From an uncultured delta proteobacterium (lineage in GTDB: Bacteria; Desulfobacterota; Binatia; HRBIN30; BPIQ01), in the NCBI GenBank assembly GCA_963761335.1, contig CAVXGR010000013.1, positions 96,001-160,000 of the forward strand: a DNA stretch of 64,000 bases, given 5' to 3'. Positions 36,001-39,000 of this stretch are shown piece by piece. Positions within the stretch are counted from its first letter, which is position 1. Each line of letters opens with the position of its first letter. Position numbers: made by a program.

Positions 36001-39000
36001 ACGCCGTCGCCGCGGTGCGTTTCCGCGCCGAGGGCTTCTCGGGGTTCCGCTCCTCGCTTCCGGTCCTGCTGCCGATCGCCATCGGTTCGGCAGCCGGCGC
36101 CCTCGCCATCTCGCAGGTCGCCGACAAGACATTCGAGAAGCTGTTCGGTGTCGTCATGGTGCTGCTGCTCGTGCCGATGCTGCGCCGGCCGGCGCGCCCC
36201 ACCGCCGGCAGCTCGCGCCGTCACTCCCCGCGAACCACCTTTCTGATCTTCCTCGGCATTGGGCTCTACGGCGGCGCCTTTCAGGCCGGCGTCGGCATCG
36301 CCCTGATCCTGGCGCTGGCCTACAGCGGCTTCGATCTGGTGCGCGCCAACAGCATCAAGGTCGTGGTCAACGCGGCGCTCACCGCCGTCGCCGTGCCGGT
36401 GTTCGCCTTCAATCACCAGATCGAATGGATTCCCGGGCTCCTGCTCGCGGCGGGCTACTCCGCCGGAGCCACGCTCGGCGTGCGCCTGGCGGTGCGCGGC
36501 GGCGAGAAGGTCATCCGCCCCGTGCTCGCGGCCTCGGTCGTGGCTCTGGCGGGGCACATGCTCGGGCTGTACTGAGGGGACAGTGCGTCATGAGCCTGCG
36601 GCTCACCAACAGACGATGAAAATGAGGCTGCGGATCTGCGCCGGCAAGAGACTTGGAGGCTCTCGCCTGGGCGAAGTTCGCCCCGGAGGGGCGGTGGCGT
36701 GTAGCCCCGGGTGAAACCCGGGGAAGAATGCGCGCTCCGTCAGGCGCGCCCCGCCAGGGGCGCGGGCAAGTTTTCGTCGATGTCACGCCTGTGCGCCGAT
36801 GGTCACCGCTGGGTGCGTGGGAAGCTCATCGACTTGATTCACGCGGCCTCTACGCCTGCGCCCCTGCGGGGCGCTGATCTGGGCCAATCGGAACGCGGTC
36901 CCCGGGTTAACACCCGGGGCTACATGCCTGCGCCCCTCCGGGGCGATAAGCCTCCACGCCAAGCGCCGGTGCGCTCCGCCAGACCTTCACCCAACAGATT
37001 TTCGAAGCAGGCAACTTTTGCGGCCGAGATCCTTGCTCTCGCGAGATTTCGAGGCACAAAAGTAGCCTGTCCCCCCTAAGGCCAGAACAGGCGGCGCGCC
37101 TCGCTCCGCAGCTGCTCGCGGAAGGGCTCGGCGGCCAGGTCGACCAGAGCCATCGATCGCTGCCGCTGCGTGAGCCCCTGGAGGTTGGCGATGCCGTGCT
37201 CGGTCACGACGTAGTCGACCAGCGTGCGGGGCAGGGTGATGACCGTGCCTGGCGGATGCTGGGCAACGATACGCGAAACCGTCCCTCGCTGCGCCGTGGA
37301 GGGCAGCACCAACACGGCGCGGCCGCCGGGAGCCATCAACGCCCCGAGGGTCCACACCAGCTGGCCGCCGGGGCCGGTATACATCACGGGACCGATGGAC
37401 TCCGAGGCCGCCTGGCCGGTGAGATCGATGGCCGCCGTCTGGTTGATGGCGATCAGGTTGCGGACCCCGGCGATACGGGGCAGGTGGTTGACGTACTCGA
37501 TGTCGTACAGCTCGATCCTCGGGTTGCCGTCGCAGAAGGCGAAATCGGATCCCGGAATGATGTGAGACGCGGTCGCCACTCCCGGGTGGGTGTTCTTGTG
37601 CCGCCCGCTGGCGACTCCGCTCTTCACCAGCTCGACCACGGAGGCGACCAGGATCTCGGCATCGATGCCGAGATCGCGCTTCTCCGTCAGGTAGCTGCCC
37701 ATCGCCGAGGACAGGGTGCCGGTGCCGATCTGCACCGTGTCGCGGTCGTTGACCAATGTGGAGACGTAGGCGCCGACGAGCTCCGTCACCTCGAGGCGCT
37801 CCGGGCTCAGCTGCGGATAGCGCGGTCGCAGCTCGAAGGGGATCGCCTGCGGTACGGCCAGATCGAACTTGGACAGGTGCACGCAATTGTCGCCGCCGGT
37901 GCGGATCATCCCGGGGCAAATCTCGGCGATGCCGAGGCGCGCCGCCTGCAGCAGCGCCTTCGAATGCCAGAGACTGTAGCCGAAGCTCACGAAGCCCTCG
38001 GCGTCCGGCTCCGAGACCAGCGCCATGAAGACGTCCGGCGTCCACTGGTCTCGCCGTCCGGGCTGGCGCACCTTCGACCCGAGGCTGAACTCGGCCACGG
38101 CAAAATCGCCGATGCGCGCCTCGATCGACGGCCGAACCCATTGGGACACGAAGTCGGTGACGTACTCGATGTGCTCGACCCAGCTCGCATCGCCGTCGCA
38201 CCAGGGGTGGGCGCAGCCGGAGGCGGCTTGAAAGACGCGGACACCCCGGAGCTCGGCGCGCCGGCGCGCCAGGGCGTCGAGCAACGACATCGGCACCGGC
38301 CCAAGCGGCAGGCGAATCAGATCGCCGGAGCGCACCCGGCGAGCCGCCTCGTCGGCGCTCACCACACGTCCGGCAAAGCGCTGCTGCCAGTCGCTCTGGT
38401 CACCGGGCATGAGATCAGTCGTTGACGACGATGCGGTAGGTCACCGAGCCGGTGGCGACCACGCAGCCCGAGCGGCAACCGCTGACGGTAACGCCGTTGA
38501 GAAAGATCTCGTTGTCGCGCCGCAGCGTGCGAGCGTGGGCGAGGACGTCCTCGCCAAGGGCCGGGGCGTGAAAGTTGAGGTGAATTCCCACGGTCGACGC
38601 CTTGTAGGAAAAGTTCAGGCCGGTGATGGACCAGGAGGCCATGGCGCCGCTGGTGTCGATCAGCGCCGCCAGCGCGCCCTCGTGCACGCGCCCGTCGCCG
38701 TCGGCGTTGTCGGCGTGGAAAGGCATGGCCAAGAAGGCCTCGCCGTCGCGGGCATGCGTAACCGTCATGCCCAGCCGGGCAATGAAGGGCACGGCCACGA
38801 AGACGCGCGCATTGCGCGGCACGTCGAGGGCTCCCGCGGGAAGCCTCTCGGCGGCCATGCGCCGCTGTCGCTGCGCCGCCTGCGGCACGGCGGCGCGGTC
38901 GAGTGCCCGATAGGTCACCAGCCCCTTGGCGACGCGCTTGCCGGCGTCGCTATGCACGTCGACATCGGCATAGACAATCTCCTTGCCACGGCGCAGGACC

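What a model noticed while it worked through the whole genome (the two positions that open the first line are those of the whole stretch)
36576..37078. Acido-Lenti-1 RNA hits are modules of a high-copy site-specific non-autonomous mobile element
45 of the 46 Rfam Acido-Lenti-1 (RF01687) hits of this genome are not free-standing sRNA genes: each is an internal hairpin module of a ~430-nt (short form ~290-nt) non-coding repeat present in more than 100 copies (reference copy inside C13:132576-133078). The repeat is inserted at one fixed position (GGGGACAG^GC) in the left arm of a second repeat, a ~72-80-nt palindromic hairpin (GGGGACAGGCnnCTTTT...AAAAGnnGCCTGTCCCC, variable loop); about 77 hairpins are occupied and at least 80 are empty. 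Together they make 211 loci / 60 kb (1% of the genome) and are found in none of 51 other genomes of the order.
Evidence so far: blastn of the reference copy against the genome: 211 merged loci, 60,312 bases, 193 of 211 outside called genes; 118 left ends and 106 right ends, paired lengths cluster at ~290 nt (about 24) and 430-480 nt (about 50). Constant ends TGCGTCATGAGCC...TTTTCGAAGCAG; tandem copies abut as ...GAAGCAG|TGCGTCATG...; single copies are flanked by GGGGACAG on the left and GCnnCTTTT-loop-AAAAGnnGCCTGTCCCC on the right, together the two arms of the hairpin seen intact elsewhere. Stem positions co-vary between copies. 45 of 46 Rfam hits lie inside these loci; the exception is C17:207249. 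Each 430-nt copy holds two such modules in inverted orientation. No copy holds a transposase ORF. 0 of 51 other HRBIN30 [...]
(Added by a program. Inside this text positions count along the whole contig: contig position 96,001 is position 1 of the stretch shown here. "Call 12" and the like, gene names such as g00115 and contig names such as C1 are that model's own, and its searches are not shown. The text may have been shortened before it was handed on; [...] marks where a part breaks off. The agent that wrote the report below was given it as the finding of a first reader that could run no searches.)

Follow-up and report, generated by a model that had tools for sequence, protein, structure and literature searches.

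The report
Hitch-hiker repeat inside transposase hairpins
A gene-less mobile DNA element, recognisable only by its two short ends, has lodged about a hundred times at one exact spot in a small hairpin repeat that belongs to a single-strand (Y1) transposase, and the Acido-Lenti-1 "RNA" motif is just cargo that it carries.

Summary
Window 36584-37010 is one 427-nt copy of a non-coding repeat. It sits after GGGGACAG in one arm of a 72-80-nt palindrome, with no duplication and no inverted ends.

Three points change the reading.
- The family is defined only by a ~47-nt left end (TG, CGTC tag, 6-bp hairpin, CCA) and a 23-nt right end ending in CAG. The interior is exchangeable. The long form carries an inverted pair of Acido-Lenti-1 modules; the short form carries unrelated hairpins.
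- Acido-Lenti-1 modules are not specific to this element. About half lie in another repeat family. In relatives they flank IS200-like Y1 transposase genes, as this scan noted earlier on other DNA.
- The target palindrome is the terminal-repeat doublet of another Y1 transposase (TIRYT type, outer motif GGGGWSAS). Relatives carry that gene between such arms. This genome keeps only two relics of it.

58 of 59 occupied hairpins have unique centres, so the insertions were independent.

Best reading (about 0.5): Y1-type cut-and-rejoin after CAG next to a hairpin, now probably extinct here. The two "transposase-bearing" copies hold a nested, unrelated IS110-family element. It is a new variant of REP/TIRYT biology. 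No direct proof of movement was obtained.

The parts
35829..36575 (+). Upstream gene (TauE/SafE family). Its TGA stop (36573-36575) abuts the hairpin.
   Evidence: ORF list; Pfam PF01925, E 1.7e-40.
36576..36583 (+). GGGGACAG: the outer octamer of the left arm of the target hairpin. It matches the GGGGWSAS motif of TIRYT terminal repeats. The element follows it directly.
   Evidence: Sequence. 67-70 of 433 exact octamers in the genome are followed by the left end, all in hairpin context. Motif from PMC3733652 (passages read).
36584..37010 (+). The element, long form, 427 nt. It has no ORF of its own family, no inverted ends and no target duplication.
   Evidence: It is 94-96% identical to other long copies.
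36584..36630 (+). Left end shared by the long and short forms: TG, tag CGTC (36586-36589), A, stem TGAGCC (36591-36596), loop TGC, stem GGCTCA (36600-36605), tail CCA (36606-36608), then AACAGACGATGAAAATG.
   Evidence: Alignment. Of 87 copies: TG 83, CGTC 59 / CATC 15 / CCTC 9, tail CCA 81, loops of 3-5 nt that vary, and 2 copies with a change on both sides of the stem.
36679..36723 (-). Inverted Acido-Lenti-1-like module (cargo), GTAG-tagged hairpin.
   Evidence: RF01687, 28.8 bits, below the cut-off of 37.
36900..36945 (+). Acido-Lenti-1 module (cargo): CCCCGGG-loop-CCCGGGG, CTAC, then GCCCC-TCC-GGGGC.
   Evidence: RF01687, 37.7 bits against a cut-off of 37.
36988..37010 (+). Right end shared by both forms: CACCCAACAGATTTTCGAAGCAG. 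It has no conserved hairpin and ends in CAG like the target octamer.
   Evidence: Alignment. Per-position conservation 0.71-1.0 over 87 copies.
37011..37074 (+). Remainder of the target hairpin: GCAACTTTT, a centre unique to this copy, then AAAAGTAGCCTGTCCCC.
   Evidence: 58 of 59 such remainders are distinct.
37076..38410 (-). Downstream convergent gene (acetyl-CoA hydrolase/transferase family).
   Evidence: PF13336, E 1e-43.
7270..7695 (-). Second long-form copy in the window, in a hairpin arm.
17055..17339 (+). Short-form copy (285 nt): same ends, unrelated interior.
10003..10074 (.). Empty target hairpin. Others lie at 4129-4205, 4222-4293, 31572-31646 and 35706-35782.

Best explanation
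What it is:
- The stretch is one copy of a gene-less, site-specific mobile element whose identity lies only in its ends.
- The left end is a CGTC-tagged hairpin with a CCA tail, 2 nt from the junction. The right end is 23 nt and finishes in CAG.
- The interior is cargo picked up from other repeat families. In the long form the cargo is an inverted pair of Acido-Lenti-1 / GTAG-tagged three-hairpin modules, which in relatives are the arms around an IS200-like Y1 gene.

The target:
- The target is a doublet of the terminal repeats of a different Y1 (HUH) transposase of the TIRYT kind.
- Insertion falls exactly after the conserved outer octamer GGGGACAG.

Proposed mechanism (inferred, not shown):
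- A Y1 enzyme of this TIRYT kind cuts single-stranded DNA after CAG, at a fixed place 5' of a hairpin foot. It does this both at the element's ends and in the target.
- It joins the right end to the left end, which reseals the hairpin, and pastes the element in after CAG next to the hairpin remainder.
- An occupied site keeps both the CAG and the remainder, so later copies add on at the right. This gives head-to-tail arrays.

The cognate gene is broken in this genome. The family is therefore probably a fossil, unless a paralogous TIRYT still serves it.
For: Shown:
- Precise junctions with no duplication and no inverted ends.
- Two forms with the same ends and unrelated interiors.
- 58 of 59 host hairpins are distinct.
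- Both arms are used: 2 hairpins are doubly occupied.
- ACAG arms are used and ACTG arms never.
- The octamer alone is not enough: 70 of 262 hairpin arms are occupied against 0 of 171 other GGGGACAG sites (p 1e-17).
- In mixed two-unit arrays the younger short form (96.3% against 92.0% mean pairwise identity) lies on the right in 8 cases against 1. This argues that CAG plus the 3' hairpin remainder is what is recognised.

Link to Y1:
- The hairpin arms start with GGGGACAG, which fits GGGGWSAS, the motif of TIRYT terminal repeats (PMC3733652 and PMC6006769, passages read).
- In G047:C70 a 208-aa HUH/Y1 gene lies between a whole hairpin and an arm reading GGGGACAGGCTACTTTT.
- 9 of 12 loci of this Y1 type in the order have GGGGACAG arms within about 150 nt.
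- G000 keeps the first 60 codons of this gene (53% identity, E 1e-13), cut inside the HUH motif and preceded by two hairpins. It also keeps the last 30 codons (E 9e-4), followed by a hairpin.
- The scheme of a cut beside a hairpin, a 4-nt tag at the hairpin foot, seamless donor resealing and a right-end-to-left-end junction is that of IS608 (PMC3201880 and PMC5934647, passages read).
Against: - No intact cognate Y1 gene and no autonomous copy with these ends is in the assembly.
- The shared right end has no hairpin, unlike IS200/IS605 ends.
- Orientation against GC skew is 46:34 (p 0.22), not the strong lagging-strand bias known for IS608/ISDra2.
- Variants of the tag (CATC, CCTC) do not co-vary with the 4 nt before the cut, so tag-to-cut-site pairing is not supported by covariation.
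- No biochemical data were found, in what I read, on where TIRYTs cut.
- No present/absent polymorphism was seen.
Confidence: 0.5

Rival explanations
1. An IS110/IS1111-type recombinase moves the element in trans, guided by a bridge (seek) RNA that pairs with the hairpin arm and with the joined ends. The shared CAG would be the crossover core.
For: - IS110-family elements are known to insert into REP-like palindromes without inverted ends or duplications. This rests on my own knowledge plus the background passage of PMC3733652.
- The genome holds 5 near-identical copies of an IS110-family element (PF01548 + PF02371).
- CAG is present at both junctions.
Against: - That element has its own different ends (GGTTACC...CATAGAAGA). 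In all 5 copies it targets another hairpin (CCCTCTCCCGC-loop-GCGGG^AGAGGGTCAGGG). The 2 copies inside the short form are nested insertions.
- Its non-coding parts share no word of 7 nt or more with the joined ends, and only one 8-mer with the target.
- Arrays that grow at a half-site do not fit two-sided guide pairing.
Confidence: 0.12
2. A small GIY-YIG single-strand nuclease of the Ssn kind recognises the CGTC-tagged left-end hairpin and nicks a few bases upstream. Copies then spread by repair or recombination, not by a transposase.
For: - Ssn enzymes bind CGTC-AT-hairpin-C repeats as single-stranded DNA and cut a few nt upstream (PMC11893778, passages read).
- The left junction here lies 2 nt upstream of CGTC, and the hairpin is followed by C.
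- The genome has two small GIY-YIG genes.
Against: - The left end does not fit the paper's degenerate SRM pattern, because the stem starts GAG and not YY (my check against the pattern quoted).
- The two small GIY-YIG genes lie beside a tRNA-like end and integrase fragments, and are not flanked by such hairpins.
- A nuclease alone does not explain seamless insertion at one base in about 100 different hairpins, nor exact head-to-tail junctions.
Confidence: 0.1
3. The insert is not mobile on its own. One or a few ancestral composites (hairpin plus insert) were copied around by whatever moves the hairpin, or the pattern is a mosaic built by recombination among repeats (BIME-like).
For: - No polymorphic site and no circle-specific read was obtained.
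- Repeats in this genome are heavily nested and mosaic.
- REP dimers sitting inside longer palindromes have been described before (PMC3733652).
Against: - 58 of 59 host hairpin remainders are different, while the inserts are 92-96% alike.
- Both long and short forms occur in all arm subtypes.
- Either arm can be occupied.
- Occupancy follows ACAG and not ACTG.
Confidence: 0.13

Closest known systems
TIRYT / TIRtron terminal-repeat families (Di Nocera, De Gregorio & Rocco 2013, PMC3733652; subclass 2.1 of Quentin et al. 2018, PMC6006769)
   Same: - The target hairpin is a dimer of arms starting GGGGACAG (= GGGGWSAS).
- Such arms flank a Y1/HUH gene in relatives.
- They form a dispersed family of singles and dimers.
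   Different: - Copy number here is about 200 hairpins, while the cognate gene is a relic.
- The papers, as far as I read them (passages only), do not describe another element lodged at the octamer boundary, nor where the enzyme cuts.
IS200/IS605 family and its gene-less derivatives (peel-and-paste, IS608 model; PMC3201880, PMC5934647)
   Same: - No inverted ends and no duplication.
- Insertion 3' of a short fixed sequence.
- A hairpin near the left end with a 4-nt tag at its foot.
- A seamless donor joint and a right-end-to-left-end junction.
   Different: - No hairpin in the shared right end.
- The cut lies only 2 nt from the tag.
- The target needs a hairpin context, not just 4-5 nt.
- No strand bias and no autonomous parent.
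CGTC-tagged REPs (PMC3733652) and the NTS/SRM repeats of Ssn nucleases (PMC11893778)
   Same: The left end reads CGTC, A, stem, short variable loop, stem, CCA. That is the layout given for CGTC repeats, which 'lack a dedicated transposase'.
   Different: - The stem is 6 bp, not 8-9 bp.
- The foot pair is A.C.
- It does not match the SRM search pattern.
- It is a single hairpin at one end of a 290-430-nt unit, not a head-to-head dimer.
REP/REPIN-RAYT systems and Rfam RF01687 (Acido-Lenti-1; Weinberg 2010, PMC2864571)
   Same: The cargo of the long form is an inverted pair of GTAG-tagged three-hairpin modules. The same kind of arms brackets IS200-like Y1 genes in at least 16 of 19 loci printed from relatives.
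   Different: - Here the pair rides inside another vehicle, and the matching Y1 gene is absent (0 hits).
- Table 1 of PMC6006769 lists 'no' REP for subclass 1.2, whose motifs (DH[IV]H, WQ, YI..Q.EHH) these genes fit by eye.
REP dimers nested in target palindromes (A. variabilis, T. roseum and H. neapolitanus cases in PMC3733652)
   Same: A small repeat is found regularly inside a longer palindrome.
   Different: - Those sit in the centre of the palindrome.
- This one sits in an arm, at a fixed base, in either arm, and forms arrays.

Membership tests
Rfam RF01687 Acido-Lenti-1 (as a free-standing sRNA gene) | Score at or above the gathering cut-off (37 bits) over the two-hairpin model. | tested here: met
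   36900-36945 scores 37.7 bits. Its inverted partner scores only 28.8. 46 hits in the genome reach the cut-off.
Rfam RF01687 Acido-Lenti-1 (as a free-standing sRNA gene) | An independent locus, not part of a dispersed repeat. | tested here: not met
   44 of 46 hits are inside end-bounded arrays. In relatives the hits come as inverted pairs around Y1 genes.
REPtron / REPIN (GTAG REP with Y1 gene) | GTAG tag next to the hairpin, and inverted copies flanking a Y1 gene. | tested here: met
   The tag is seen in TGTAGCCCCGGG. Flanking is seen in relatives: 19 of the 20 genomes with the gene also have the motif. In G000 the gene is absent.
IS200/IS605 gene-less derivative | No inverted ends, no duplication, insertion 3' of a fixed short sequence. 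| tested here: met
IS200/IS605 gene-less derivative | Subterminal hairpins at both ends. | tested here: not met
   The left-end hairpin is conserved. The 23-nt shared right end has none, and the nearest hairpins differ in place between forms.
IS200/IS605 gene-less derivative | A parent element with tnpA and the same ends. | tested here: not met
   None in G000. The left-end pattern is absent from genome contigs and metagenome contigs.
IS200/IS605 gene-less derivative | Orientation bias with replication. | tested here: not met
   46:34 against GC skew, p 0.22.
TIRYT terminal-repeat family (for the target hairpin) | GGGGWSAS at the outer end of the repeat. | tested here: met
   GGGGACAG. Motif as quoted.
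TIRYT terminal-repeat family (for the target hairpin) | The repeats flank a Y1/HUH gene. | tested here: met
   G047:C70. 9 of 12 loci in the order. Relics with hairpins in G000 at C15:16312-16666 and 30330-30500.
CGTC-tagged REP (for the left end) | CGTC tag, 8-9-bp stem starting with an A-T pair, 4-5-nt loop, CCA tail. | tested here: inconclusive
   Tag 59 of 87 and tail 81 of 87 are met. The stem is 6 bp with an A.C foot, and the loop is 3-5 nt. The figure with the consensus was not available.
Ssn-related motif (SRM) | Match to HGTCWYN(0-2)YYVSBRH... | tested here: not met
   After CGTCAT the stem reads GAGCC, so no YY falls within 2 nt (pattern; sequence).
IS110/IS1111 derivative | DEDD transposase element with the same ends and target. 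| tested here: not met
   The genome's IS110-family element has other ends and another target. No donor-matching words.
Classical MITE | Terminal inverted repeats and a target duplication. | tested here: not met
   The ends are not inverted copies of each other, and the empty site is restored exactly.

The most novel reading that the evidence does not exclude
These elements are parasites of a TIRYT system, and their junctions mark where this uncharacterised class of Y1 enzymes cuts: right after GGGGWSAS, beside a hairpin. CGTC-tagged hairpins, so far without a known transposase, would then be substrates of TIRYT-class enzymes. The CGTC tag would act like the IS608 guide for a (G/A)CAG cut site. 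Such elements would also be vehicles that amplify other families' REPINs, which would explain why Acido-Lenti-1 is abundant here without its own enzyme.
Probability: 0.3. Interest if true: 0.75.

Novelty: new variant of a known kind. Interest (0 to 1): 0.6.

Why it matters
- It explains why an orphan Rfam family is abundant in a genome that lacks its partner gene. The modules are cargo, amplified second-hand.
- It gives a concrete, testable cut site for TIRYT enzymes, for which I found no biochemical data. My search for 'TIRYT' returned only the two papers cited.
- It offers a candidate answer to the open question of what mobilises CGTC-tagged repeats (abstract of PMC3733652).
- It shows several repeat families nested in one another: REPINs inside end-defined vehicles inside terminal-repeat doublets, with an IS110-family element and a TIR-MITE on top. 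This is a caution for sRNA annotation in GC-rich soil genomes.

Tried and rejected
- IS110 parent: the ~2-kb copies at C7:72926-74927 and C18:1149824-1151783 looked like autonomous elements. Alignment of all 5 copies showed a nested foreign element.
- Unpaired left ends: the 20 examined are truncated or decayed copies, or carry a nested TIR-MITE. None leads into a gene.
- Hairpin arms as the ends of a larger element in G000: none found among arm pairs 130-5000 nt apart.
- A 16-mer 'empty' palindrome, GGGGACAGCTGTCCCC: 0 copies.
- Public collections: the left-end pattern gives 0 hits in genome contigs and in metagenome contigs.
- Sequencing runs: 9 runs listed, and no RNA holder listed. Four soil runs of one study were laid, as contigs only. 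They show the occupied left junction and a right-end-to-left-end joint that tandem copies also explain. No contig joins across an empty site.
- Orthologous site: the family relative G001 has the acetyl-CoA hydrolase gene at 67% identity but a different neighbour, so no orthologous empty site is available.
- Other recombinases in G000: TnpB zinc-ribbon domain, 0 hits. Serine recombinases (5) and tyrosine recombinases (13, several of them short C-terminal fragments) were listed; only five short tyrosine-recombinase fragments were inspected, and none showed these repeats.
- Integron attC reading: the order of the core-like bases in the arms is the reverse of attC. This rests on my own knowledge of attC and was not tested further.
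- Taxonomy look-up of 'HRBIN30' found nothing.
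Full report
**1. The sequence**

- Window 36576-37074 fills the whole spacer between two convergent genes. These are a TauE/SafE-family gene (35829-36575, +) and an acetyl-CoA hydrolase/transferase gene (37076-38410, -).
- The spacer reads GGGGACAG | TGCGTCATGAGCC ... TTTTCGAAGCAG | GCAACTTTT ... AAAAGTAGCCTGTCCCC.
- The insert is 36584-37010, 427 nt.
- Rfam RF01687 matches 36900-36945(+) at 37.7 bits, just above its cut-off of 37. It matches the inverted partner at 36679-36723(-) at only 28.8 bits.

**2. Genome-wide counts**

The window lies in a 6.26-Mb, 29-contig, 68% G+C assembly.

- blastn of the 503-nt reference gives 241 merged loci and 57 kb.
- The left-end 13-mer occurs 112 times with at most 1 mismatch. 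The right-end 12-mer occurs 133 times, of which 9 are look-alikes in another repeat.
- Left ends are preceded either by GGGGACAG or, in 29 cases, by the right end of a preceding copy.
- The ends group into 98 arrays: 49 single units, at least 16 complete double or triple arrays, and the rest incomplete. Arrays are bounded by GGGGACAG on the left and GCnnCTTTT on the right.
- There are 100-105 empty hairpins of 70-80 nt.

**3. What defines the family**

- An alignment of long (~425 nt), longer (~475 nt) and short (~287 nt) copies shows that the short form shares only the first ~47 nt and the last ~23 nt with the long form. Everything between is unrelated.
- The left end is TG, CGTC, A, a 6-bp stem (TGAGCC/GGCTCA or GGCTCG), a loop of 3-5 nt that varies between copies, and CCA.
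- Of 87 copies, 83 start TG and 81 have the CCA tail. The tag is CGTC in 59, CATC in 15 and CCTC in 9. Two copies carry a change on both sides of the stem.
- The right end, CACCCAACAGATTTTCGAAGCAG, has no conserved hairpin.
- Both the target octamer and the right end finish in CAG.

**4. Evidence for independent insertion**

- Of 59 arrays with a complete hairpin remainder, 58 remainders and 58 centres are different. The inserts themselves are 92.0% (33 long copies) and 96.3% (19 short copies) identical on average. A composite copied around would carry its hairpin centre with it.
- Long and short forms occur in all arm subtypes.
- Two hairpins are occupied in both arms.
- Many 77-nt hairpins have one ACAG arm and one ACTG arm. 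No ACTG arm is occupied: 0 of 22, against 5 of 12 ACAG arms of the same subtype (p 0.003).
- Of 433 exact GGGGACAG sites, 192 are empty arms, 67-70 carry the element, and about 171 lie elsewhere with no insertion (p 1e-17).
- In mixed two-unit arrays the younger short form is on the right 8 times and on the left once. The site that keeps attracting copies is therefore ...CAG^GCnnCTTTT-hairpin remainder, not the intact octamer.

**5. The 'transposase' copies**

- Two ~2-kb copies (C7:72926-74927 and C18:1149824-1151783) hold a 363-aa IS110-family protein (PF02371 E 1e-20, PF01548 E 2e-10).
- The genome has 5 copies of this element, one of them in the window at about 12552-14271.
- Aligned with flanks, all five share ends GGTTACC...CATAGAAGA. 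All sit in the right arm of a different hairpin, CCCTCTCCCGC-loop-GCGGG^AGAGGGTCAGGGTGAGGG.
- The short form happens to carry such a hairpin, so these two copies are nested insertions.
- The element's non-coding parts share no word of 7 nt or more with the joined ends of our element.

**6. Acido-Lenti-1**

- 46 hits reach the cut-off. 44 of them lie in end-bounded arrays.
- A looser pattern for the first hairpin plus CTACA finds 342 sites, of which 159 lie outside the arrays.
- Most of the outside sites form the core of a third repeat, about 480 nt long, with ~35-nt terminal inverted repeats (AGTAGTGGTGGATCTTGAGATCAACCGCGTTTC). One example in the window lies at about 21190-21610.
- In the order, RF01687 matches 24 of 51 other genomes, with 1-13 hits each, typically as inverted pairs.
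- In the loci read, the pairs bracket a ~148-aa protein with Pfam Y1_Tnp (E 1e-21).
- That protein is found in 20 of 51 genomes, and 19 of those also have the motif. G000 has none.
- In at least 16 of the 19 loci printed, three-hairpin arms lie on both sides of the gene.
- The long form's interior is thus a gene-less copy of such a unit.
- This scan had reached the same reading of Acido-Lenti-1 on other genomes.
[quoted passage not shown] The search is, with six papers, of which I read passages from two.

**7. The target hairpin**

- A pointer from the scan's notes led me to Quentin et al. 2018. That paper quotes the motif GGGG[AT][CG]A[CG] at the ends of the inverted repeats that flank TIRYT genes.
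- Di Nocera et al. 2013 describe these TIRtrons, the GGGGWSAS motif, and dispersed families of such repeats as singles, dimers and clusters.
- GGGGACAG fits the motif.
- G000 has TIRtrons of its own with other repeats. C15:202288-203325 encodes 346 aa with Y1_Tnp plus a sub-threshold Bac_DnaA_C match, and its TIR reads GGGGACGTRGTTTCAT. There are copies on C12. C5:7412-7855 has the TIR GGGGTCGGACC.
- G000 also has a RAYT at C11:377168-377760, flanked by a REP present in 50-61 copies.
- Scanning 30 loci of TIRYT relatives for inverted repeats found one, G047:C70, whose repeats read GGGGACAGGCTACTTTT. There, a whole hairpin, a 208-aa HUH/Y1 gene (SNHFHLVV ... YVLQNPVRA) and a single arm lie in a row.
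- 9 of 12 loci of this protein type in the order have GGGGACAG arms within about 150 nt of the gene. The bases after the octamer vary between genomes.
- G000 matches this protein only in pieces. Codons 1-60 lie at C15:16487-16666 (53% identity, E 1e-13). They break off inside the HUH motif, where another repeat begins, and are preceded by two hairpins. The last 30 codons lie at C15:30330-30419 (E 9e-4) and are followed directly by a hairpin.
- Hairpin arms occur at low copy in 23 of 51 relatives (reversed-pattern control 0-2 per genome). Whole hairpins were read in G005, G008, G009, G026 and G047.
- The hairpin family is therefore older than its expansion in G000, and older than the insert.

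**8. Mechanism**

- The features taken together are: a precise cut after a short fixed sequence beside a hairpin, a 4-nt tag at the hairpin foot, no duplication, an exactly restorable donor, and head-to-tail junctions equal to a circle junction. These are the features of Y1 'peel and paste' as worked out for IS608.
- The target belongs to a Y1 system, and so does the cargo.
- I therefore put a TIRYT-class Y1 enzyme first, at about 0.5.
- Steps shown: the anatomy, the specificity, the independence of insertions, and the link of the hairpin to a Y1 gene.
- Steps inferred: that this enzyme cuts after the octamer, and that it handles the element's ends.
- Against it: the right end lacks a hairpin, there is no strand bias (46:34), tag variants do not co-vary with the cut site, and there is no intact enzyme gene.
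- The left end also resembles the CGTC-tagged repeats of Di Nocera et al. and the NTS repeats cut a few bases upstream by Ssn nucleases. However, it fails the published SRM pattern, and the genome's two small GIY-YIG genes are not associated with it.

**9. What is missing**

- No autonomous copy was found here or in the public collections.
- No polymorphic site was seen in four soil runs of one study, which may be the source sample.
- No orthologous empty site is available.
- Supplementary files and figures of the cited papers, such as the consensus figures of PMC3733652, were not seen and may bear on the comparison of the CGTC and TIR families.

**10. Verdict**

- This is a real, well-delimited, site-specific non-autonomous element.
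- The Acido-Lenti-1 hits are its cargo and not its essence.
- It is a new variant within REP/TIRYT biology, with a concrete, testable mechanism.
- Interest: 0.6.

Noticed in passing
window about 12552-14271 (+); also C7, C18, C24, C27: IS110-family insertion sequence (363-aa DEDD transposase), 5 copies 98-100% alike. Each sits in the right arm of a hairpin, CCCTCTCCCGC-loop-GCGGG^AGAGGGTCAGGGTGAGGG. Two copies are nested in short-form elements. Its guide RNA was not identified.
   Followed up: partly
window about 21190-21610; about 30 or more loci genome-wide (e.g. C1:16042-16219): A third repeat family of ~480 nt with ~35-nt terminal inverted repeats (AGTAGTGGTGGATCTTGAGATCAACCGCGTTTC). Its core is the same inverted pair of GTAG-tagged Acido-Lenti-1-like modules, 151 nt apart.
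   Followed up: partly
G000 C15:16312-16700 and C15:30330-30810: Relics of the Y1 gene that belongs to the target hairpins, 13.7 kb apart. Next to the second relic a short-form copy shows an unusual 13-nt repeat of the target (GCTGTGGGGACAG) at its right junction.
   Followed up: partly
G000 C11:376708-377951: A classical REPtron: an E. coli-type RAYT gene flanked on both sides by tandem REPs (GGCGGCCAAGATGGCCGCGCTCCCAG) that occur 50-61 times in the genome.
   Followed up: partly
G000 C11:549318-550507, C7:148709-149776, C18:935738-936620, C10:43790-44174: Tandem expansion of the ~66-72-nt module unit, both inside long-form copies (up to 1190 nt) and in free arrays of 14 or more units.
   Followed up: no
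G000 C15:349421-349850, C15:16690-16770, C7:72700-72925: A further small repeat with inverted ends, GAGGCTGTCTCAAAAC...GTTTTGAGACAGCCTC. It is nested in long-form copies and sits at the break of the Y1 relic. It holds a right-end look-alike (TTCCGAAGCGG).
   Followed up: no
loci L034, L035, L047, L049 (G039, G040, G023): A second subfamily of the IS200-like Y1 units with Acido-Lenti-like arms lies inside a larger unit with inverted ends CATATGCGTTAACCTAAG, flanked by 10-12-nt direct repeats. That is a TSD-like signature, unexpected around a Y1 gene.
   Followed up: no
window 21922-22092; also C18:975755, C18:295028, C8:74281, C25:94664, C17:~207700: Five or six short open frames that encode only the C-terminal catalytic part of an integron-integrase-like tyrosine recombinase (…[18 protein letters not shown]…). 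Two are followed by GTTGACCCGCC…GGCGGGTCAAC palindromes.
   Followed up: no
G000 C18:1165466-1165996 and C18:1175396-1175920: Two identical small GIY-YIG genes, next to a tRNA-like 3' end and integrase fragments. They probably lie in integrated elements.
   Followed up: partly
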